Origin: Patescibacteria group bacterium | GTDB taxonomy: Bacteria > Patescibacteriota > Minisyncoccia > Minisyncoccales > UBA5738 | Length of the DNA stretch: 64,000 nucleotides | Assembly (NCBI GenBank): GCA_034678605.1 | Contig: JAXDBQ010000039.1 | Span: 65,172 to 129,171, forward strand | Direction of reading: 5' to 3' | In this document: positions 9,126 through 64,000 of the stretch, piece after piece | Position numbering within the stretch: position 1 is the first letter of the stretch | How the letters are laid out: each line of letters begins with the position of its first letter | The notes under the pieces: model-generated | Told to the model about the DNA's origin: nothing | Seen by the model: the letters and a program-made list of their open reading frames with translations, nothing else | The model's database searches: none | Made by a program: the position numbers and the translations under genes

Positions 9126-10133
9126 ATGGACAGGATTAAGCAAAAAAAATTCGGGAAGGTTAAACCTCCCAGAAAGTTAAATATTGTTTGCATTGGTGGA
9201 GGAACGCAGATTCCGCCGTTGCTTTTGGATAGTTTGAGAAAAATGCCGGTGGAAGTTGTCGGTATAACTTCGATGGTTGATTGCGGCGGGTCGGGCGGTT
9301 ATTTCAGGAACAAGTTTGAAGTTTTGCCGCCCAGCGATATCCGGCGCCATATCTTGGGCTTGTCCAATGCGCCGCAATGGAAAAAAGAATTGTGGAAATT
9401 CCGTTTCGGCGAAGAAGAGTTCGAGGATGGCCATAAAGGGCAGGTTTTTGCCAATGCGTTTATGGCCGGATTGGAAAACGCGTTCAAGGATTATCGAAAA
9501 GTGATGCAGTTTGCTTGTGAGTTCATGGAGTTGGGCAAAAATCGCGCGTTGCCGGCCACGATCAAGCAAACGCACATTATTGCCGAATTGGAAAACGGCG
9601 AAATTGTCAAAGGCGAGGCGGAAATCGATGTACCGCGCAATCACGACGCGAAACTGAAAATAAAAAAAGTTTATCTTGAACCGAAAGTCGCGGCATTTTC
9701 GGAAGCAAAAAAAGCGATCTTGGAGGCGGATGCGATCATTGTCGGCCCGGGGGATCTATATTCCAGCATCATTCCGTGTTTTTTGCCCGAAGGCATGGCG
9801 GCGGCGCTGAAAAAATCAAAAGCAAAAAAAATTTTAATTTGCAATTCTTTGGCTAAGATGGGCGAAACGCAGGATTTTTCCGTGGCCGATTTTGCGGCCG
9901 AGATCGAAAGATATATGCAAACAAAATTGGATTTTGTTTTGTACCATAATCAGCCGCTTGATAAGAATTTGCTGGCGGCGTTTCAAAAAGAATATCCGCA
10001 GATTTCCGGCGCATTGAAGATCGATGGCGATTTGCCGCCGGATAAGTTTGTGGGGCGCGATATTTATCAAAAAGATAAAATCGCCTTTGATTCCAAAAAA
10101 GTCATCAAAAACATCTTTAAACTGGTCAAATAA
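9126..10133 (+). CDS. YvcK/CofD-family protein (UPF0052, gluconeogenesis factor / 2-phospho-L-lactate transferase-like)
   Basis: It contains CIGGGTQIPPLL...VDCGGSGG...IVGPGDLYSSIIP motifs. The first ATG is at 9126; the ORF-track start at 9114 is TTG. Confidence 0.75.
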   Translation: MDRIKQKKFGKVKPPRKLNIVCIGGGTQIPPLLLDSLRKMPVEVVGITSMVDCGGSGGYFRNKFEVLPPSDIRRHILGLSNAPQWKKELWKFRFGEEEFEDGHKGQVFANAFMAGLENAFKDYRKVMQFACEFMELGKNRALPATIKQTHIIAELENGEIVKGEAEIDVPRNHDAKLKIKKVYLEPKVAAFSEAKKAILEADAIIVGPGDLYSSIIPCFLPEGMAAALKKSKAKKILICNSLAKMGETQDFSVADFAAEIERYMQTKLDFVLYHNQPLDKNLLAAFQKEYPQISGALKIDGDLPPDKFVGRDIYQKDKIAFDSKKVIKNIFKLVK

Positions 10134-10164
10134 AGTGTAGCAAGGTGAAACCTTGCTACACTTT
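10132..10164. repeat. REP hairpin, GTGTAGCAAGG family (inverted orientation, loop TGAAA)
   Basis: The sequence aaaGTGTAGCAAGGtgaaaCCTTGCTACACttt overlaps the yvcK-like stop codon. Confidence 0.9.
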
Positions 10165-14552: not shown

Positions 14553-14593
14553 AAGGCAGTGGAAAAAGGTTGGAAGATATTAGTTTATTGATC

Positions 14594-15709
14594 ATGGGAA
14601 AGGAAATATATTTTTTGGCAATTGAGACATCGTGCGATGACACTTCGATCGCTGTTTTGCGAGCCAAAGAGGACGGCAAGGGAAAACTGAAAAAGATCGA
14701 AGCGTTATCCAATATAGTTTCCTCGCAGACGCAATTGCACGCGGGGTATGGCGGGGTTTATCCGTTTTTGGCCAAGCGCGAGCATCAAAAAAATTTGCCG
14801 CTGGTTTTTGAGCAGGCGGTTAAAAAAACTGATTTGTCAAAGCTGGAATTCATCGCCGTTACCAAGGGTCCGGGATTGGATCCTTGTTTGTGGACCGGCA
14901 TTAATTTCGCGCAAAACTTGGCAAAAAAATGCGATTTGCCGCTGGTGGGCGCCAATCATCTGGAAGCGCATTTTTTGGCCAATTTACTCGCCTTGGGTAT
15001 CGGCGAGGATGAATTTGCTAAAAAGTATTTGCCGGCGGCGTGCCTGGTGGTTTCGGGCGGCCACACGCTGTTGTTTTTGGCCAAGGCGATTGGCGATTAC
15101 CAATTGCTGGGGCAGACATTGGATGACGCGGCCGGCGAGTGCTTTGACAAAGCGGCGCGCATTCTTGGCCTTGGCTATCCGGGCGGCCCGGAAATCTCCA
15201 AGTATGCCAAACAATATATTAGCAAAGATTACAGGGGTTGGACCCCTGTAAAATTGACAGGGGTTGAACCCCTGTTGGTTAAGCTGCCGCGGCCGATGAT
15301 CAACCAAAAAAATTATAATTTCAGTTTTTCGGGGCTAAAGACTGCGATTTTGTATTTGCATCAAAAGCAAGATGAAGAAATTAAAAAATCACCGGAATAC
15401 CGGGCGGCGATGAGCCATGAGATCCAGCAGGCGATCATTGATGTGTTGGTTAAGAAAACTTGCCGCGCTGCAAAAGAATTTGCGGCGCGGTCGATCATTA
15501 TCGGCGGGGGCGTGAGCGCCAACCTTGCCTTGCGCGAGGCAATGAAAGCCGCCGCCAAAAACCTTGGCGTTAGATTTCTCGCGCCGTCAGCCGACTTGTC
15601 GGTGGATAACGCGGCCATGGCCGGAGTGGCCGGTTATTTTGCTTGGAAGCGAAGCGAAATTGCCGCCAACCCTGACGATCTGGTTTCCGAACCGAATTTG
15701 GGAATTTGA
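14594..15709 (+). CDS. tsaD: tRNA N6-adenosine threonylcarbamoyltransferase
   Basis: It shows LAIETSCDDTS, GANHLEAH, GGHT and FSFSGLKTA motifs. The first ATG is at 14594. The gene contains an in-frame 45-nt palindromic insert. Confidence 0.9.
   Translation: MGKEIYFLAIETSCDDTSIAVLRAKEDGKGKLKKIEALSNIVSSQTQLHAGYGGVYPFLAKREHQKNLPLVFEQAVKKTDLSKLEFIAVTKGPGLDPCLWTGINFAQNLAKKCDLPLVGANHLEAHFLANLLALGIGEDEFAKKYLPAACLVVSGGHTLLFLAKAIGDYQLLGQTLDDAAGECFDKAARILGLGYPGGPEISKYAKQYISKDYRGWTPVKLTGVEPLLVKLPRPMINQKNYNFSFSGLKTAILYLHQKQDEEIKKSPEYRAAMSHEIQQAIIDVLVKKTCRAAKEFAARSIIIGGGVSANLALREAMKAAAKNLGVRFLAPSADLSVDNAAMAGVAGYFAWKRSEIAANPDDLVSEPNLGI
15231..15275. repeat. double-hairpin palindromic element, in frame within tsaD
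   Basis: The sequence ACAGGGGTTgGACCCCTGT-aaaattg-ACAGGGGTTgAACCCCTGT is 45 nt (15 codons) and encodes RGWTPVKLTGVEPLL. Confidence 0.9.
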
Positions 15710-21194: not shown

Positions 21195-21265
21195 TGGTTC
21201 GCCGTTTTTTTATAGGAATTCGTTAAAGATCAATGATTGATTTTTAAATTTAAATGCAGTTTTAT

Positions 21266-21312
21266 AGGGGTCGCACCCCTGCTCCGCTGCGCTACGCAGG
21301 GGAACGACCCCT
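21266..21312. terminator. GC-rich 17-bp hairpin between convergent genes
   Basis: AGGGGTCGCACCCCTGC-13 nt-GCAGGGGAACGACCCCT has one 2-nt internal mismatch and lies between the 20709 ORF (+) and pth (-). Confidence 0.6.
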
Positions 21313-39494: not shown

Positions 39495-39505
39495 ATTTAG
39501 TATGG

Positions 39506-39538
39506 TAAGTGTAGCAAGGTTTCACCTTGCTACACTTA
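39506..39538. repeat. REP hairpin, GTGTAGCAAGG family
   Basis: The sequence is taaGTGTAGCAAGGtttcaCCTTGCTACACtta. Confidence 0.9.
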
Positions 39539-39548
39539 CGCGATCAAA

Positions 39549-43734: not shown

Positions 43735-43766
43735 GGCGCAAGGATTTACCTTGCGCCGTTTTTTTG
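43735..43766 (+). terminator. intrinsic terminator
   Basis: GGCGCAAGG-attta-CCTTGCGCC is followed by gTTTTTTT. Confidence 0.85.
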
Positions 43767-45356: not shown

Positions 45357-45401
45357 ATGGGGGTTCAACCTTTGTAAATTTGACAGGGGTTAAACCCCTG
45401 T
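45357..45401. repeat. intergenic copy of the tsaD double-hairpin element (first hairpin degenerate)
   Basis: The sequence is atGGGGGTTcAACCtttGT-aaatttg-ACAGGGGTTaAACCCCTGT. Confidence 0.8.
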
Positions 45402-56007: not shown

Positions 56008-56035
56008 AGTGCACAAGGTGACACCTTGTGGCACT
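56008..56035 (+). terminator. hairpin plus T-run, sequence-related to the GTGTAGCAAGG REP
   Basis: aAGTGCACAAGGtgacaCCTTGTGgCACTttttttg has one bulge. Confidence 0.5.
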
Positions 56036-56073
56036 TTTTTGTTAAAATCGGCAGGATTGGGTATAATAGAATA

Positions 56074-59382: not shown

Positions 59383-61389
59383 ATGACTAGCAAGAAATTA
59401 ATCGCCGGCATGATTGCTTTGGCGATGGCGGTGGCGATTGTCCCGGGCGCGACCCAGGCCGCGACTGCCGAAGAATTGGCGGCGCAAATTGCCGCGTTGC
59501 AATCTCAATTGGCCGGTTTGATGGGCCAGCTGGGAGGCGACACGACCGCGACTGCGGGCACTGTCTCGGCCACCGCTCCGGCGGCGTGCGCGGGCATCTC
59601 GTTCACGAGAAATTTGACCTTGGGCTCGCAAGGCACCGATGTCAAATGTTTGCAAACTATGCTGAATCAAGATCCGACAACCGCGGTGGCGGTGACGGGC
59701 GTGGGTTCGGCGGGTAACGAAACGATGTATTTTGGCGGCTTGACCAAGGCCGCGGTGGTGGCTTTTCAAAACAAGTACGCCGCTGAAATTTTGGCTCCGG
59801 TCGGTTTGACCGCGGGCACCGGTTTTGTGGGCGCTTCCACTCGCGCGAAATTGAACGCGATGTTGGCGGGCGGCACCACCACCGGCACCACCGGCGACAC
59901 CGGCACCACCGGCACCACCGGCGACACCACCACCACTGGCGGTTTGACCATGACCGGCGCCGAAGGCGCGATTACGGTTTCCATCAACCCCAGCCCGGCC
60001 AATGGCGTCAAGTTGTATGAAGGCGACGGAAAGGTATCGGTTTTGGGTATCAAAGTGAAGGCCACCGGCTCGGATGTGGATGTTCAACGGGCAACCTTGA
60101 GATTCGCGGATCAACCGTATTCATACTTCACCAATGTGTATTTGTATGACGGCGACACCGAAGTTGCTTCGGCCGCGTTGAACTCAACCACGGTTTCCAA
60201 AGTGTCTTCGACCAACTATCAGATTACTTTGAGCGGTTTTGCCAGCAAAGTGATCGTGGCCAAGAATGCGGAAAAAGTGTTGACGGTGAAGCTTGATGTT
60301 TTACCGGGCATTTCCAGCGGTTTGTTGACTGCGGGAGTTAAGAACACCAGCATCGGTATGCCTTCGGAAACCGCGGTGCGGGCGGTGGATCAGGCCGGCT
60401 TAAATCAATACGGCGGTGTTGCCTATGATACCGCGGCCACTTATCGGGCGTTTTCGGTGAACCAATCGCAATCGGCCAATGCCACTTTGACATTGAGCTT
60501 GAATGCCAATTCGCCCAAAAAGCGCAATATCATTGCCGACTCAAGCCAGGAACTCAATGGCGTGACTTTGATGGCGTTTGATTTGAAGGCGACCAAAGAT
60601 AATTTGATCGTCGATGAGATCTTGGATGTTGATTTCGGGTCTTCCGGATTGCCCACAACCGCTTATGTGGTTGATGACGGTGGCACGGTTATCGGCACGA
60701 TCACTCCCAGCGCCACTGCGACAAGCAATGATTTCACCGAATTGAATTACACTATTGCCAAGGACACGACCAAGACCTTGTCGATCAAGATCGATGAATC
60801 GGTAGCGGCGCCCGATTCCACCACTCATGTGAGCACCAATGACGGCGATACCTACACGGTGGTGATTGGCAGCGGCAAAATTGGTTTTACCAAAACCAAT
60901 GGAAGCACCGGTACCAGCACGGGCACGGCCACCAGCAACGCGGCTTATGTCTATGGCGAAGGTGCCGAATTGTCTTTGACCAGCATCACCACGACCAACA
61001 CTCAAGCTCCGTTTAGCACGGCCAGCTCCACATTGTCGGCGACATTCAACATCAATGTGGCGGCTAAGAGCGGCGATGTGTATATCGCCAATTCGGGCGC
61101 GTTCACGGTGCACAAGAGCATTGGCGGCGCTACCTCGACAGTTTCGGATGTGACCTATGTCCAGCCGAGCAACACAGTGGCTTCCGGCTCTAACTTCAAA
61201 ATTAGCGACGGCAACAATGCCACTTTCGCGGTTAACGCGACCTTTGCCAACGCGGGTGTTGCCGGAACCTATGATCTCCGGATCGCGGAGATTAAATGGG
61301 GTCATGTAACCGACACTCCGACGGCGGTGACTTCAAGCTTCATGAACGGCGAAGCGGCTTGGATCAGCCCGGCGGTCTACCTGCGCTAA
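59383..61389 (+). CDS. large secreted surface protein with PG_binding_1 domain and Thr/Gly linker
   Basis: It has a signal peptide ending PGATQA-AT, a coiled segment, a PG-binding motif (GSQGTDVKCLQTMLN...GGLTKAAVVAFQ), a TTGTTGDTGTTGTTGDTTTTGG linker and a beta-rich remainder. Confidence 0.7.
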   Translation: MTSKKLIAGMIALAMAVAIVPGATQAATAEELAAQIAALQSQLAGLMGQLGGDTTATAGTVSATAPAACAGISFTRNLTLGSQGTDVKCLQTMLNQDPTTAVAVTGVGSAGNETMYFGGLTKAAVVAFQNKYAAEILAPVGLTAGTGFVGASTRAKLNAMLAGGTTTGTTGDTGTTGTTGDTTTTGGLTMTGAEGAITVSINPSPANGVKLYEGDGKVSVLGIKVKATGSDVDVQRATLRFADQPYSYFTNVYLYDGDTEVASAALNSTTVSKVSSTNYQITLSGFASKVIVAKNAEKVLTVKLDVLPGISSGLLTAGVKNTSIGMPSETAVRAVDQAGLNQYGGVAYDTAATYRAFSVNQSQSANATLTLSLNANSPKKRNIIADSSQELNGVTLMAFDLKATKDNLIVDEILDVDFGSSGLPTTAYVVDDGGTVIGTITPSATATSNDFTELNYTIAKDTTKTLSIKIDESVAAPDSTTHVSTNDGDTYTVVIGSGKIGFTKTNGSTGTSTGTATSNAAYVYGEGAELSLTSITTTNTQAPFSTASSTLSATFNINVAAKSGDVYIANSGAFTVHKSIGGATSTVSDVTYVQPSNTVASGSNFKISDGNNATFAVNATFANAGVAGTYDLRIAEIKWGHVTDTPTAVTSSFMNGEAAWISPAVYLR

Positions 61390-61513: not shown

Positions 61514-61546
61514 GAAAACCGCTCCCAACTTTTGGGAGCGGTTTTC
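61514..61546 (+). terminator. strong intrinsic terminator
   Basis: GAAAACCGCTCCCA-acttt-TGGGAGCGGTTTTC is a perfect 14-bp stem. Confidence 0.8.
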
Positions 61547-61566: not shown

Positions 61567-61609
61567 ATATTCAAGTGTAGCAAGGTTTCACCTTGCTACA
61601 CTTGAATAT
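61567..61609. repeat. REP hairpin, GTGTAGCAAGG family, extended 19-bp perfect stem (left flank of RAYT)
   Basis: The sequence is ATATTCAAGTGTAGCAAGGtttcaCCTTGCTACACTTGAATAT. Confidence 0.95.
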
Positions 61610-61656
61610 GTTTGATAAAATTTATATATGGATAAATAATCAAAAATATAAAAATT

Positions 61657-62319
61657 ATGCCCAATTTAAAACGGGAATTTTTAAATGGCGGAATTTATCA
61701 TGCTTTTAATCGCGGCGTGGAAAAGCGCAATATTTTTATGAATGAATCCGATTATTATCGGTTTATTTTTTCTCTTTACGAATGCAACGATGCGGTTTCA
61801 GTGAGGGTGACGCAACGAATCATAAATCGACGTGCGCGAAACTTATCGCGAAGTGTAGCAAGGTTTCACCTTGCTACACTTGATCGCGTGGTTGATGATT
61901 CAAAATTGAAATCTTATAAGAGGGAATTATTGGTTGATATCCTGGGGTTTGTTTTAATGCCAAACCATTATCATTTGATTTTGCGTCAGTTGGCGGAGGG
62001 CGGGATATCATTGTTTATGAAAAAAATGAGCAACAGTTATACCGGTTATTTTAACGATCATTATAAAAGAAAGGGCGTGGGCGCTTTGTTCCAAGGAGCG
62101 TTTAAAGCGGTGCCGGTGGCTGGCGAGGGGCAATTGATGCATTTGGTCGAATATGTTTTTTCCAATCCGGTTGAAATTATCGATCCGGATTGGAAAAATC
62201 GGGGGACGGAAAATCCAAAAGAGGCGCTCAATTTTTTGAAAACCTATAAATGGTCAAGTTATTTGGACAGCGTTGGGATCGATAATTTTCCGTCAGTTAC
62301 TGCGCGTGAATTTTTGTAG
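61657..62319 (+). CDS. REP-associated tyrosine transposase (RAYT; IS200/IS605-like Y1 HUH transposase)
   Basis: It has the HUH motif MPNHYHLIL and the Tyr motif EYVFSNP, and is flanked by REP hairpins. It contains a REP copy in frame, and its TAG stop is followed by 37 more in-frame codons. Confidence 0.8.
   Translation: MPNLKREFLNGGIYHAFNRGVEKRNIFMNESDYYRFIFSLYECNDAVSVRVTQRIINRRARNLSRSVARFHLATLDRVVDDSKLKSYKRELLVDILGFVLMPNHYHLILRQLAEGGISLFMKKMSNSYTGYFNDHYKRKGVGALFQGAFKAVPVAGEGQLMHLVEYVFSNPVEIIDPDWKNRGTENPKEALNFLKTYKWSSYLDSVGIDNFPSVTAREFL
61851..61880. repeat. REP hairpin, GTGTAGCAAGG family, inside the RAYT coding sequence
   Basis: The sequence aaGTGTAGCAAGGtttcaCCTTGCTACACtt is translated as SVARFHLATL. 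Confidence 0.95.
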
Positions 62320-62434
62320 AAAATTTTTGGCGACAACAAAGGCATTGAATCAGGCAAGCAAAAAATTAAAAAATCCGTTCAAGAATGGGTCGAAAACAAA
62401 AGATTTTTAAATCCCAAATTAACATTGGAGTAAA

Positions 62435-62467
62435 CAAGTGTAGCAAGGTTTCACCTTGCTACACTTG
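62435..62467. repeat. REP hairpin, GTGTAGCAAGG family (right flank of RAYT)
   Basis: The sequence is caaGTGTAGCAAGGtttcaCCTTGCTACACttg. Confidence 0.95.
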
Positions 62468-62572: not shown

Positions 62573-62914
62573 ATGAAAAAATCGCAAAAAATTTGGCTGG
62601 CAATTTCCCTGTCAATGTTCTTGCTTCCGGAATTGTTATGGAGTTCAATTGGAAATTTTTATTATGAATTTTTTCAAAGCGGCGATGTTCATCCATTTAG
62701 AAATAATTTTCTAACAAATAGCGAAAATTTTGGCACATTGAAATTTATATTTTTTGTTCAATTTGTTGGCGCGATTTTGTTTTTGTTGCTTGTTCTTTTC
62801 AAAAAAATAAATAAATTAATGAAGGTATTTTTATTATTTTTTTCATTACTACTGATTTTGATTATTGGTTTTGTGGTTTTGTTCGCTTTTTATAATAACC
62901 CGCGTATCGGTTAA
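62573..62914 (+). CDS. small integral membrane protein
   Basis: 113 aa with 3 hydrophobic helices, AT-rich coding sequence and no known motif. Confidence 0.4.
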   Translation: MKKSQKIWLAISLSMFLLPELLWSSIGNFYYEFFQSGDVHPFRNNFLTNSENFGTLKFIFFVQFVGAILFLLLVLFKKINKLMKVFLLFFSLLLILIIGFVVLFAFYNNPRIG

Positions 62915-62919
62915 AAAAT

Positions 62920-64000
62920 ATGCGAAAAATAAATTGGCGATTTTTATTATCTTTGGCGACGGCAATTGGCTTGGCGGCGGGATCTTTTGCCTTTGAAAAC
63001 CAAGGATTAAAAATCGAAAACGCCGATGAATTGGCCGACTACGATTTGCAAATTCCGCTCGATGACATGCTTGATGCCGGCGAGGCCAGTGAGAAATTTT
63101 CCAACGATATGGCGATTTGCCATGCCGACGAAGTGAATACCATTGAATTGGAAGCGCCTTTGGCTGATATGTTTGACGCTTCCGAAGCGATCGAGAACTT
63201 TTCCAACGATATGGCAATTTGCCATGCTGACGAGGTGATCACGATTGATCTGGAGCCGGTGGAAATTCCCGAGGCCACGGCCGGAGTTTTATCCAAAACG
63301 CCGGTTTTGTTTGTGCCGGGGTTATTGAGTACGGAAATAAATGAAAAAAGTGATTTATTGTGGTTAGATTTAGAAAAATTGTTTTGGTCGAAAACAGATG
63401 ATTTTCTTGATGGGCTTGTGTTTGATTCTGATTTAGTGTCCAGAAATAATCAATTATCGTTGGCAAGTGTCATTACCAAAAAGGTGGTGCCTTTTTGGCA
63501 AGATTATGATTATACCGAGGGGTTGATCAAGGAGTTTGAGATGGCCGGGTATCGCGCGGAGGGGGCGGGCGGGGAACAAACATTTTTTACTTTTCTTTAT
63601 GACTGGCGCTATGGGGCCAGCGGGGCCTATCCGGTGCCGGAAAACACCGGCCAGCGGCCCATTACCAATGTTGATTTGTTGGCGAACAAAATCGCCGAGC
63701 TGGCGCAAATTTCGCCCACGGGCAAGGTGGATGTGATTGCCCACAGCTTGGGCGGGTTGATCGCCAAAAAATACGCGCTGGAAACCGGCCAGCCATTGAT
63801 CGGCAAATTGGTGTTTTTGGGGGTGCCCAATTTGGGCACGCCGCTGGCCGGCCGGGCGCTGTTGCTGGGCACCGATTTTGGGGTGTTTGGCCTCAACCCG
63901 TTGGAATTAAAAAAGATTTCTCAAAATATGCCGGCGGCCTATGATCTTTTGCCCAGCCGGGAATATTTTGAATCAAAGAGCGGCTGGATCAACATCTACA
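62920..64000 (+). CDS. secreted alpha/beta-hydrolase, lipase/LCAT/PGAP1-like (partial, continues past window end)
   Basis: This ORF is absent from the supplied track because it has no stop in the window. It was hand-translated without stops. It has a signal peptide, a 2x34-aa repeat, PVLFVPG, and the nucleophile elbow IAHSLGG. Confidence 0.7.
   Translation, partial: MRKINWRFLLSLATAIGLAAGSFAFENQGLKIENADELADYDLQIPLDDMLDAGEASEKFSNDMAICHADEVNTIELEAPLADMFDASEAIENFSNDMAICHADEVITIDLEPVEIPEATAGVLSKTPVLFVPGLLSTEINEKSDLLWLDLEKLFWSKTDDFLDGLVFDSDLVSRNNQLSLASVITKKVVPFWQDYDYTEGLIKEFEMAGYRAEGAGGEQTFFTFLYDWRYGASGAYPVPENTGQRPITNVDLLANKIAELAQISPTGKVDVIAHSLGGLIAKKYALETGQPLIGKLVFLGVPNLGTPLAGRALLLGTDFGVFGLNPLELKKISQNMPAAYDLLPSREYFESKSGWINIY

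What the first reader, a model, noticed from the sequence alone, without database searches (positions are those of the whole stretch)
61567..62467. RAYT locus: a Y1 transposase flanked by its REP hairpins, with a third copy in frame inside the gene and a TAG-truncated end
The 220-aa ORF has the HUH (NHYHLIL) and Tyr (EYVFSNP) motifs of IS200-like/RAYT transposases. It is bracketed by perfect copies of the hairpin GTGTAGCAAGG-tttca-CCTTGCTACAC (61567-61609 with a 19-bp stem, and 62435-62467). This is the classical REP-RAYT arrangement. The hairpin contains GTAG, as do the GC-rich REPs. Two things are unusual. First, a third perfect copy lies inside the coding sequence (61851-61880), between the N-terminal strand and the HUH motif. 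It is read in frame as SVARFHLATL, so the element has apparently inserted into its own presumed mobiliser without breaking the frame. Second, the ORF ends at a TAG (62317-62319), but the same frame continues for 37 codons (KIFGDNKGIESGKQKIKKSVQEWVENKRFLNPKLTLE*) up to the right-hand REP. That suggests a recent nonsense mutation. Solo copies lie at 10132-10164 (inverted) and 39506-39538, and a diverged relative at 56008-56035.
Basis: partly seen in the sequence, partly recalled or inferred. Interest (0 to 1): 0.6.

Follow-up and report, generated by a model that had tools for sequence, protein, structure and literature searches.

The report
Transposase-like gene carrying its own hairpin
A RAYT-like tyrosine (HUH) nuclease gene of a Patescibacteria bacterium has the same perfect DNA hairpin before it, after it and in frame inside it. 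This three-site layout is conserved and co-evolving across a large gene family, so it is not a one-off insertion. The copy in this window also carries a recent stop-codon mutation.

Summary
Five perfect copies of GTGTAGCAAGGTTTCACCTTGCTACAC lie in the window (0 expected). Three sit at the Y1/HUH gene: upstream, in frame as RSVARFHLATL, and downstream. The TAG is a G-to-A change of a family-conserved Trp codon. A 99%-identical metagenomic allele has TGG, and the 37-codon tail is conserved family-wide.

The interpretation needs revising. The internal hairpin is not a recent self-insertion. Among 80 homologs from Patescibacteria genomes, 51 carry a strong in-frame palindrome at the same loop, and 46 of those have the same palindrome within about 130 bp upstream of the start and/or about 30 bp after the stop.

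Hairpin sequences differ between lineages but match within a locus. They co-diverge with the protein through compensated changes and are more conserved than the codons around them. Pairing is Watson-Crick only. Loop orientation of the flanking copies looks random. GTAG is not conserved.

The predicted fold is closest to E. coli TnpA_REP (4ER8), but the curated RAYT model is not met. Synteny indicates a resident gene.

Best reading: a RAYT-like nuclease with three cognate hairpin sites, the internal one probably acting in self-regulation. That last step is inferred. I found no prior description.

The parts
61567..61609 (.). Upstream (UP) copy of the cognate hairpin: perfect palindrome with a 20-bp stem and 3-nt loop TTC. 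It ends 47 nt before the ATG.
   Evidence: The equivalent UP copy is present in most homolog loci.
61612..61640 (+). Promoter-like site TTGATA-17-AATAAT between the UP hairpin and the ATG. This is a consensus match only.
61657..62319 (+). Y1/HUH tyrosine nuclease gene, truncated allele (220 aa, W221*).
   Evidence: AF2 model pLDDT 84. Foldseek top hit 4er8_A.
61851..61881 (.). Internal (IN) copy of the hairpin: 14-bp stem, in frame, encoding R65-SVARFHLATL75. It lies in the low-confidence loop between the 51-70 helix and the HUH strand.
   Evidence: It is homologous in position to the in-frame hairpins of 51 of 80 family members.
61963..61974 (+). HUH motif N103-H104-Y105-H106.
   Evidence: N103, H104 and H106 are invariant in 120 homologs.
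62152..62154 (+). Putative catalytic Tyr166, in E-Y-VFSNP.
   Evidence: Y166 and N170 are invariant and P171 is at least 90% conserved in 120 homologs.
62317..62319 (+). TAG nonsense codon at a position where homologs have Trp (TGG in L001 and L204).
62320..62433 (+). Ancestral C-terminal tail: 37 codons plus TAA. It is now untranslated in this allele. The nucleotide sequence is identical to the intact allele.
   Evidence: It forms a confident helix (residues 230-250) in the model.
62435..62467 (.). Downstream (DN) copy of the hairpin: 15-bp stem, starting 2 nt after the ancestral TAA.
   Evidence: The equivalent DN copy lies from -6 to about +26 nt of the stop in most homolog loci.
10132..10164 (.). 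Solo copy with opposite loop orientation (GAA). It is intergenic and overlaps the stop codon of the upstream gene by 2 nt.
39505..39539 (.). Solo copy with a 16-bp stem, in a 54-bp spacer between co-directional genes.
56008..56039 (.). Diverged, imperfect relative: AAAGTGCACAAGGT-GAC-ACCTTGTGGCACTTT.

Best explanation
The locus belongs to a large, Patescibacteria-wide subfamily of RAYT-like Y1 (HUH) single-strand-DNA nucleases. Each member comes with its own lineage-specific perfect palindrome.

The palindrome occupies three canonical sites:
- just 5' of the gene;
- in frame, in a poorly structured surface loop between an Arg-rich helix and the HUH beta-strand;
- just 3' of the stop codon.
A few solo copies also lie in intergenic spacers right after stop codons.

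Shown: the three sites are kept alike within a locus and co-diverge with the protein by compensated (both-arm) changes. They are conserved at the nucleotide level beyond what coding requires. The gene stays in a conserved genomic position among its closest orthologs.

Inferred: the encoded enzyme recognises these palindromes as extruded hairpins, on either strand because the stems are perfect, and cleaves and rejoins next to them as TnpA_REP and IS200/IS605 TnpA do. The flanking copies correspond to the ancestral element ends. The internal copy is a third recognition site that makes the gene a target of its own product. The most likely role is negative autoregulation or self-limitation. A side effect is hairpin-to-hairpin deletion, as in the truncated gene in L023.

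The internal peptide itself is probably only tolerated. In this window the gene carries a very recent TGG-to-TAG change that removes a conserved C-terminal helix.
For: Family-wide layout:
- L002 is a 60%-identical, syntenic ortholog with hairpin doublets at all three sites.
- Of 80 homologous genes, 51 have an in-frame hairpin of at least 9 pairs in the 75 codons before NHxH. Of those, 37 have the same apex both upstream and downstream and 46 on at least one side. Only 1 of 66 control regions reached 9 pairs.

Covariation:
- 83.9% of cells are paired against 56.8% in shuffles. The covariation score is 0.648 against 0.152 (0 of 500 shuffles reach it). Slid controls are at most 41% paired. Only one one-sided (wobble-type) change was seen.
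- Stem positions 7-10, beyond the detection threshold, are 85%, 85%, 74% and 62% Watson-Crick.

Co-divergence and conservation:
- Stem identity tracks protein identity (Spearman 0.46; 86% stem identity for proteins at least 70% identical). Paralogs within one genome have distinct hairpins.
- Between orthologs the hairpin is 0.81 identical, against 0.59 for adjacent loop codons and 0.52 for third-codon positions. It is 100% identical in three pairs.

Pairing versus operator: copy-specific stem positions remain paired in 61 of 136 copies (45% against 25% expected, p = 4e-7), with runs up to 15 bp.

Protein:
- PF01797 is above its cutoff.
- HUH and YxxxNP are conserved: H104, H106, Y166 and N170 are invariant and P171 is at least 90% conserved.
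- The model has pLDDT 84, with the only region below 50 at residues 71-83, next to the hairpin peptide.
- The best PDB fold match is 4er8_A (TnpA_REP with its REP hairpin), followed by IS608, ISDra2 and IS200 TnpA.

Residency: the homolog of the upstream 668-aa protein is adjacent in L002 and L004-L007.

Dispersal: two solo copies in the window and about 10 solo doublets in metagenome contigs.

Hairpin-to-hairpin rearrangement: the L023 gene lacks its N-terminal third and is bounded by its own hairpin on both sides.

TAG.
Against: - No biochemical evidence exists that this protein binds or cuts these hairpins. Recognition must differ from TnpA_REP, which needs a 5' GTAG and a bulged stem (PMC3479197); both are absent here.
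- About 15 family members keep the UP and DN hairpins but have lost or degraded the internal one, so it is dispensable.
- The UP hairpin's distance to the ATG varies from 3 to about 110 nt. No single regulatory geometry holds: it sits upstream of a promoter-like site here but abuts the start codon in other loci.
- Autoregulation is inferred from position alone.
- Palindromes of a second family sit in frame in tsaD. In-frame residence is therefore not unique to the Y1 gene and could partly reflect simple tolerance.
- The recombination breakpoint in L204 is not at a hairpin.
- Concerted evolution could come from ordinary gene conversion between nearby repeats.
Confidence: 0.6

Rival explanations
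1. By-product model. The hairpins are small mobile palindromes that repeatedly land near or in the gene of their mobiliser, because the enzyme acts preferentially in cis. The loop is simply the only permissive in-frame site. The internal copy has no function.
For: - Palindromes of a second family sit in frame in tsaD in this window, and intragenic REPs are known in other bacteria (PMC3733652).
- The internal copy is read in different frames and forms in different clades: singlet or doublet; G-x-T, E-V-G-L or RFHLA. That implies turnover.
- About 15 members lack it.
- The peptide lies in a low-confidence loop.
Against: - The position is fixed relative to conserved residues across homologs at about 40-100% identity. 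G78 and T80 are at least 90% conserved in 120 sequences.
- The hairpin is more conserved than the adjacent codons and third-codon positions between orthologs.
- It almost always matches the flanks.
Confidence: 0.2
2. RNA-level model. The three hairpins act in the transcript as a 5' stabiliser or RBS occluder, an internal pause or RNase III site, and a 3' terminator or stabiliser. They do not act as DNA sites for the nuclease.
For: - DN copies often have A-run/T-run outer stems, like bidirectional intrinsic terminators, and lie 0-26 nt after the stop.
- Solo copies lie just after stop codons.
- Some UP copies abut the ATG.
Against: - There are essentially no G:U-type pairs or one-sided changes.
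- The loop orientation of flanking copies looks random: --8, ++7, -+6, +-3. That would change the RNA loop.
- In the window the UP copy lies upstream of the best promoter-like site.
- This model does not explain why each hairpin type tracks its own Y1 paralog.
Confidence: 0.15
3. Active insertion sequence. The unit hairpin-gene-hairpin is a mobile IS200-like element with a third internal hairpin, and the solo copies are its miniature derivatives. It is not a domesticated, resident RAYT.
For: - Several genomes carry 3-4 paralogs, some adjacent.
- Truncated and chimeric copies exist: L023 and L204.
- L204 has a different upstream neighbour.
- Contigs often break at these genes, as expected for repeats in MAGs.
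Against: - Paralogs within a genome are diverged (at most 72% aa identity in the assemblies compared) and have different hairpins.
- No near-identical copies were seen.
- Synteny with the upstream gene is conserved across orthologs at about 60% identity.
- There is one copy in 64 kb.
Confidence: 0.15
4. Double-stranded operator. The interrupted palindrome is bound as duplex DNA by a dimeric protein (the Y1 protein or a separate regulator), and hairpin formation is irrelevant.
For: Perfect two-fold symmetry with a 3-bp centre and Watson-Crick-only compensated changes is what a dimer operator would also show. The loop flip would not matter for a symmetric binder.
Against: - Stem positions that differ between copies of one locus are still paired far above chance, with copy-specific extensions up to 15 bp. 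One protein specificity cannot explain that.
- Stems of 20-28 bp are much longer than operators.
- In doublet lineages the large ~50-bp palindrome is perfect even where the mini-hairpin is mismatched.
Confidence: 0.07
5. One reading: a one-off recent insertion of the REP into its own transposase gene in this genome.
For: The internal copy is identical to the flanking ones and is flanked by a 6-bp direct repeat, ATCGCG.
Against: Homologs from dozens of species have an in-frame hairpin at the same site. The 6-bp repeat can be chance.
Confidence: 0.03

Closest known systems
E. coli TnpA_REP (RAYT, YafM) with REP/BIME ('REPtron'), PDB 4ER8
   Same: - Y1/HUH fold; it is the best structural match.
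- HUH and YxxxNP motifs.
- Gene flanked by its cognate palindromes, which also occur dispersed in intergenic DNA.
- Resident, largely vertically inherited gene.
- Hairpin and protein co-diverge, as reported for Stenotrophomonas RAYTs (PMC2817692).
- Has a C-terminal extension beyond the catalytic core.
   Different: - Sequence similarity is marginal: NF047646 scores 37 bits against a cutoff of 80, and the PDB profile E-value is 0.06.
- About 90 extra residues.
- The hairpins are perfect, have a 3-nt loop, and lack the 5' GTAG and the bulge that TnpA_REP needs (PMC3479197).
- Flank orientation is not consistently inverted.
- Low copy number.
- A conserved third copy lies in frame inside the gene, which I did not find described for RAYTs.
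IS200/IS605 TnpA (IS608, ISDra2) with LE/RE subterminal hairpins
   Same: Same fold and catalytic motifs. A hairpin lies at each end of the gene. The chemistry is expected to act on single-stranded hairpins.
   Different: - Those are multicopy mobile elements with imperfect, strand-specific hairpins and tetranucleotide guide and target sequences.
- Here no identical copies were seen, synteny is conserved, the palindromes are perfect, and there is an internal in-frame site.
REPINs (inverted REP doublets; Bertels & Rainey, PMC3116915)
   Same: In the L002, L004, L007 and L206 lineages each site is an inverted doublet that forms one long palindrome. Solo doublets are dispersed.
   Different: The window's lineage has singlets. 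Copy numbers appear to be tens, not hundreds. One doublet lies inside the coding sequence.
Intragenic REPs and Rickettsia palindromic elements (PMC3733652)
   Same: Short palindromic repeats are read in frame inside protein-coding genes, probably in permissive loops. The tsaD case in this window is of this kind.
   Different: Those insertions are scattered among unrelated genes and mostly not conserved in position. Here the host gene is the cognate nuclease itself, and the site is conserved across a whole family with covariation.
Parvovirus/AAV terminal hairpins with flip/flop orientations processed by an HUH Rep (from my own knowledge; not tested here)
   Same: An HUH nuclease, perfect stems, and loops found in both orientations.
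   Different: Those are ends of linear viral DNA replicated by rolling-hairpin synthesis. Nothing here shows such replication. This is an analogy only.

Membership tests
Pfam PF01797 Y1_Tnp (IS200-like Y1 transposase superfamily) | Score above the Pfam gathering threshold | tested here: met
   28.9 bits against a cutoff of 23, E = 1.4e-6, residues 84-167 only.
Pfam PF01797 Y1_Tnp (IS200-like Y1 transposase superfamily) | HUH motif and catalytic Tyr on a following helix (YxxxNP) | tested here: met
   N103-H-Y-H106 and Y166-VFSNP. H104, H106, Y166 and N170 are invariant and P171 is at least 90% conserved in 120 homologs.
Pfam PF01797 Y1_Tnp (IS200-like Y1 transposase superfamily) | Y1 HUH fold | tested here: met
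   AF2 model pLDDT 84.4. Foldseek against PDB: 4er8_A at E = 2.6e-5, then the IS608, ISDra2 and IS200 transposases.
RAYT / REP-associated tyrosine transposase (NCBIfam NF047646 equivalog) | Score above the curated cutoff | tested here: not met
   37.3 bits against a cutoff of 80.
RAYT / REP-associated tyrosine transposase | Gene flanked by two cognate REPs in inverted orientation (PMC2817692) | tested here: inconclusive
   Flanking by the cognate palindrome is met in the window and in most loci. Orientation, judged by the loop, is the same in 15 loci and opposite in 9 of the 24 with assignable loops. The stems are perfect, so orientation is nearly undefined.
RAYT / REP-associated tyrosine transposase | REP with a 5' GTAG head and an imperfect (bulged) stem, needed for TnpA_REP binding (PMC3479197, PMC3733652) | tested here: not met
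   GTAG lies inside the stem in the window only and is absent from the other lineages' hairpins. All stems are perfect.
RAYT / REP-associated tyrosine transposase | The cognate palindrome is abundant and dispersed in extragenic DNA (usually more than 100 copies per genome) | tested here: inconclusive
   There are 2 solo copies plus 1 diverged copy in 64 kb. There are 18 solo copies in about 1 Mb of homolog loci. About 10 solo doublets occur in metagenome contigs. This suggests tens per genome. No complete genome could be scanned.
RAYT / REP-associated tyrosine transposase | Single-copy, vertically inherited, housekeeping-like distribution (PMC5581495) | tested here: met
   One copy in the window. 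Synteny with the upstream gene holds in L002 and L004-L007. Several genomes have multiple diverged paralogs, each with its own hairpin, as reported for Stenotrophomonas, which has six rayt genes each flanked by REPs (PMC2817692).
IS200/IS605 insertion sequence | Several (near-)identical copies per genome at different sites | tested here: inconclusive
   None were seen; paralogs are at most 72% identical. However, MAG assemblies collapse repeats.
Intragenic REP / RPE-type in-frame palindromic element | A member of a dispersed palindromic repeat family lying in frame inside an ORF without breaking it | tested here: met
   61851-61881 is read as RSVARFHLATL. A second family sits in frame in tsaD.
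Rfam RNA families | Match at or above the gathering score | tested here: not met
   Only sub-threshold generic hairpin matches were found.

The most novel reading that the evidence does not exclude
The three-hairpin layout may be a functional module in which a cellular HUH nuclease is wired to act on its own gene. The in-frame hairpin would serve as a self-targeting site for autoregulation, or as a built-in 'fuse' that allows hairpin-to-hairpin excision.

Three further features may be the footprint of nick-and-fold-back (rolling-hairpin-like) resynthesis at chromosomal sites:
- the perfect stems;
- the copy-specific stem extensions;
- the flip/flop loops.
That would also explain how the three copies are homogenised and how REP-like palindromes are born and spread.
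Probability: 0.2. Interest if true: 0.85.

Novelty: new variant of a known kind. Interest (0 to 1): 0.72.

Why it matters
What RAYTs do, and how REP/REPIN palindromes are made, matched to their enzyme and kept in genomes, is still unresolved.

This family offers an unusually clean handle:
- small genomes;
- short perfect palindromes;
- several enzyme-hairpin pairs per genome;
- a conserved copy of the substrate inside the enzyme's own reading frame.

Covariation is extensive, at 13 of 14 stem positions. The internal site can be recoded synonymously, which separates the DNA or RNA role from the protein role. The hypothesis is therefore directly testable.

It also matters for annotation. Conserved residues such as the 'G-x-T' of this family can be a by-product of a nucleotide-level palindrome rather than a protein-level constraint. 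Similar in-frame palindromes also occur in essential genes such as tsaD in these reduced genomes.

Tried and rejected
- Exact 28-base hairpin scan of JGI metagenomes: 0 hits. It returned mostly chance 7-bp-stem singles in GC-rich contigs, so it gave only a qualitative view of dispersal.
- First structure prediction with 30 sequences: pLDDT 58, unusable. Repeated with 120 sequences.
- PDB sequence searches: nothing at E ≤ 0.01 and only 4er8 at E = 0.06. Fold comparison was needed.
- Rfam: no family reached its threshold.
- My first motif-regex locus parser missed half the loci. I replaced it with tblastn mapping.
- GTAG as a REP-class tag: rejected because it is not conserved.
- TAG as a reassigned or read-through codon: TAG ends 6 of 57 long ORFs in the window, so there is no sign of reassignment. 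Read-through cannot be excluded.
- Hairpin as the recombination breakpoint in the chimeric allele L204: rejected. The breakpoint is about 130 nt downstream, in conserved coding sequence.
- The 6-bp direct repeat ATCGCG around the internal copy as a target-site duplication: not pursued. It may be chance, and Y1 transposition makes no duplications.
- Literature searches found no description of a REP inside a RAYT ORF or of this Patescibacteria family. The library is incomplete, so absence is not proof.
Full report
**1. Observation**

The region reads as described. The 27-mer GTGTAGCAAGGTTTCACCTTGCTACAC occurs five times without mismatch, at 10135(-), 39509(+), 61575(+), 61853(+) and 62438(+). 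No copy occurred in any of 100 dinucleotide-preserving shuffles.

With a 3-nt loop the perfect stems are 20 bp (61567-61609), 14 bp (61851-61881), 15 bp (62435-62467), 15 bp (10132-10164) and 16 bp (39505-39539). The shared core is AAGTGTAGCAAGGT-NNN-ACCTTGCTACACTT. Each copy is palindromic for 0-6 further copy-specific base pairs.

ORF 61657-62319 encodes 220 aa. The internal copy is read in frame as R65-SVARFHLATL75. TAG lies at 62317-62319, followed by 37 open codons and TAA at 62431-62433. Both solo copies are intergenic and sit directly after stop codons of co-directional genes. The 'diverged relative' at 56008 is an imperfect hairpin. There is only one Y1 gene in the window.

**2. The protein**

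Pfam Y1_Tnp is matched above threshold (28.9 against 23 bits), but only over residues 84-167, after the hairpin loop. NCBIfam's curated REP-associated tyrosine transposase model scores 37 bits, well below its cutoff of 80.

A search of 5.8 billion proteins gave 768 relatives. The best 120 are 216-296 aa and cover 85-100% of the read-through query. Source names are Paceibacterota, Nealsonbacteria and 'Patescibacteria group'. In a 50%-identity representative library, 144 clusters match at E ≤ 1e-30 and 2,774 at E ≤ 1e-10.

H104, H106, Y166 and N170 are invariant in 120 sequences, and P171 is at least 90% conserved. An AlphaFold model from that alignment has pLDDT 84.4. Its only stretch below 50 is residues 71-83, and 61-70 is weak, so the weak region sits at and just after the hairpin-encoded peptide. 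A first model from 30 sequences was unusable.

The best PDB fold match is 4er8_A, E. coli TnpA_REP bound to a REP hairpin, followed by the IS608, ISDra2 and IS200 transposases. Sequence-only PDB searches are marginal.

**3. The TAG**

P0001 is 258 aa and 99% identical. Its contig L001 has TGG where the window has TAG. Trp is the consensus at that column, and the tail is conserved across the family: F224 is invariant in 30 sequences, and K238 and W244 are at least 90% conserved.

Between the window and L001 the ORF differs at five positions: three synonymous, V167I, and the nonsense change. The 37 tail codons are identical at the nucleotide level. The stop is therefore very recent, or a minority or erroneous base. 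I could not check reads.

TAG ends 6 of 57 long ORFs in the window, so there is no sign of codon reassignment.

In TnpA_REP the C-terminal tail is autoinhibitory, and its removal raises cleavage activity (PMC3479197). Truncation therefore need not mean loss of function. The tails are not demonstrably homologous, however.

**4. The internal hairpin is a family feature**

L002 encodes a 60%-identical ortholog in the same genomic context. It has an inverted doublet of the same core (GCAAGGTTTCACCTTGC ... GCAAGGTGAAACCTTGC) upstream, in frame (SSARFHLASVQGETLQNF) and downstream. L206 (66% identity) shows the same layout with the core changed on both arms to ACAAGG...CCTTGT.

I fetched 80 loci from species-representative genomes, out of 496 relatives found, essentially all Patescibacteria. 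I mapped each gene by tblastn.
- 51 of 80 genes have a hairpin of at least 9 pairs in the 75 codons before NHxH.
- 37 of these have the same apex both within about 130 bp upstream of the ATG and within about -6 to +26 bp of the stop. 46 have it on at least one side.
- Only 1 of 66 control regions (225 nt after the HUH motif) reached 9 pairs.

Two apex classes follow the two protein clades:
- GGT-NNN-ACC, read as G-x-T. This explains the at least 90% conservation of G78 and T80 in the protein alignment.
- GAAGT/GACGT-CGG-ACTTC/ACGTC, read as E/D-V-G-L/R.

In the window the single hairpin is read in the other frame (RFHLA). It corresponds to the first half of the doublet of its relatives. The second half (QGET) is replaced by DRVVD.

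**5. The constraint is at the nucleotide level**

On 36 aligned internal hairpins, 83.9% of cells are paired against 56.8% in shuffles. 13 of 14 pairs show changes on both sides. The covariation score is 0.648 against 0.152, reached by 0 of 500 shuffles. Slid controls are at most 41% paired. Only one one-sided change was seen. The inner six pairs were used for detection, so the outer eight are the unbiased ones. Positions 7-10 are 85%, 85%, 74% and 62% Watson-Crick, with almost no G:T.

Stem identity rises with protein identity: Spearman 0.46 over 903 non-independent pairs, and 86% stem identity for proteins at least 70% identical. Paralogs in one genome have different hairpins.

Between orthologs the hairpin is 0.81 identical, against 0.59 for the 30-nt loop flanks, 0.72 for the rest of the gene and 0.52 for third-codon positions. 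It is 21-23 of 21-23 nt identical in three pairs.

**6. Hairpin or duplex operator?**

A symmetric operator would also covary on both arms. However, positions that differ between copies of the same locus are still paired in 61 of 136 copies (45% against 25% expected, p = 4e-7). Copy-specific extensions reach 15 bp, and there are compensated substitutions between copies, for example L078 AATATGGGG against AACTTGGGG and L033 CCATG against CACTG. In doublet lineages the large palindrome is perfect even where the mini-hairpin has an A·C mismatch. This favours intrastrand pairing, or a process that copies one arm from the other.

One caveat: some 'extensions' may be remnants of a longer ancestral palindrome that was kept in only one copy.

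Loop orientation of the flanking copies relative to the internal one looks random: --8, ++7, -+6, +-3. Together with the absence of wobble pairs, this argues against a purely RNA-level element. However, DN copies often look like bidirectional terminators.

**7. Resident or mobile?**

The homolog of the upstream 668-aa surface-type protein is directly upstream of the Y1 gene in L002 and L004-L007. L001, L002 and L204 also share the downstream LCAT-domain gene. The gene is therefore stably placed in this lineage, as RAYTs are.

Solo copies are few. There are 2 in this window and 18 in about 1 Mb of loci. About 10 solo doublets occur on metagenome contigs, three of them at separate sites on one 309-kb contig. 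This suggests tens per genome.

About 15 family members retain the UP and DN hairpins but have lost or degraded the internal one.

**8. Rearranged alleles**

L023 holds a 146-aa Y1 remnant that starts at the HUH strand. It is bounded by CTTAGGGAC-TTA-GTCCCTAAG on both sides and lies between fpg-like and holA-like genes. This is the product expected from a deletion between the UP and IN copies. It is a single case.

L204/L205 comes from the same study as L001 and was recovered in two independent assemblies. It is identical to the window from 62011 onward, including the window-type DN hairpin. Its 5' part is diverged, with GTCGAGGT-NNN-ACCTCGAC at both UP and IN, a different upstream gene and no in-frame ATG. 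Two of the three alleles seen in this population are therefore damaged. The breakpoint is not at a hairpin.

**9. Mechanism**

Shown:
- a Y1/HUH fold with catalytic motifs;
- three matched palindromes per gene;
- covariation;
- nucleotide-level conservation;
- residency;
- a low number of dispersed copies.

Inferred from the known chemistry of TnpA_REP and IS200/IS605 TnpA: the enzyme binds the extruded hairpins and cleaves and rejoins single strands beside them. The flanks are former element ends. The internal copy makes the gene a substrate or binding site of its own product. I consider negative autoregulation or self-limitation the most likely role, at about 0.4 for this step.

The promoter-like site in the window lies between the UP hairpin and the ATG. 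This geometry is not conserved.

**10. Comparison and novelty**

The locus works like a REP-RAYT pair, but it fails the curated RAYT sequence model and lacks the GTAG head and bulge. It is not demonstrably an active IS200.

Intragenic REPs and RPEs are known in other genes (PMC3733652), and RAYTs are described as flanked by REPs (PMC2817692). In the searchable literature I found no report of a conserved, covarying copy of the cognate palindrome inside the RAYT reading frame, and none of this Patescibacteria family. I rate it a new variant of a known kind.

Noticed in passing
window 15229-15280 (inside ORF 14570-15709): The tsaD gene (TIGR03723, 331 bits) carries an in-frame tandem pair of a second palindrome family: ACAGGGGT-TGG-ACCCCTGT and ACAGGGGT-TGA-ACCCCTGT, read as ...DYRGWTPVKLTGVEPLL.... 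This hairpin type is the cognate of other Y1 paralogs (L023, L026), yet no second Y1 gene is in the window. Further copies lie at 45383-45401 (perfect; probably upstream of the true start of the ORF there) and at 21264-21282 (2 mismatches, no ORF).
   Followed up: partly
window 62600-63550 compared with L001 and L204: Identity is mosaic between strains. The Y1 gene block is 99-100% identical up to about 62600. Identity then falls to about 57-88% through the small membrane-protein gene and the first part of the LCAT-domain gene, and returns to about 100% from about 63600. The LCAT protein is 78% identical overall. This suggests a hypervariable or recombining segment next to the Y1 gene.
   Followed up: partly
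L204 1-935 (also L205): Chimeric allele. The 5' part comes from a different lineage, with different UP and IN hairpins, a different upstream gene whose stop codon TGA lies in the hairpin, and no in-frame ATG. The 3' part from window position 62011 is identical to the window, including the window-type DN hairpin. It was seen in two independent assemblies.
   Followed up: yes
L023 16930-17414: An N-terminally truncated Y1 gene (146 aa, GTG start after an AAGGAG that lies in the hairpin arm). It is bounded by the same 9-bp-stem hairpin on both sides, between fpg/mutM-like and holA-like genes.
   Followed up: partly
window 61845-61850 and 61883-61888: The internal hairpin is flanked by the direct repeat ATCGCG. 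This could be chance or a trace of how the singlet arose from a doublet.
   Followed up: no
L120 3444-4200: A paralog only 37% identical to the window protein uses nearly the same core (CAAGGT-NNN-ACCTTG) at all three sites. The UP and IN copies have one mismatch. The DN copy has a perfect 18-bp stem overlapping the stop. The internal copy is read as HSQGETLRIV.
   Followed up: partly
window 61514-61546: A separate, unrelated 15-bp-stem terminator-like hairpin (GAAAACCGCTCCCAA-CTT-TTGGGAGCGGTTTTC, followed by a T-rich tail CGTTTCCTTT) follows the upstream 668-aa gene. The UP palindrome is therefore not simply that gene's terminator.
   Followed up: partly
window 59383-61389: The upstream 668-aa protein is rich in Thr/Gly/Ala low-complexity repeats and looks like a cell-surface protein. 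Its homologs keep the same position next to the Y1 gene in five other genomes (L002, L004-L007).
   Followed up: partly
window 43735-43757: GGCGCAAGG-ATTTA-CCTTGCGCC followed by a T-run. This terminator-like hairpin shares the GCAAGG/CCTTGC core with the Y1 palindrome. The relationship is unknown.
   Followed up: no
L016 5046-7640; L050: Two diverged Y1 paralogs sit within about 1-10 kb of each other in some genomes. Each has its own UP/IN/DN hairpin set.
   Followed up: partly
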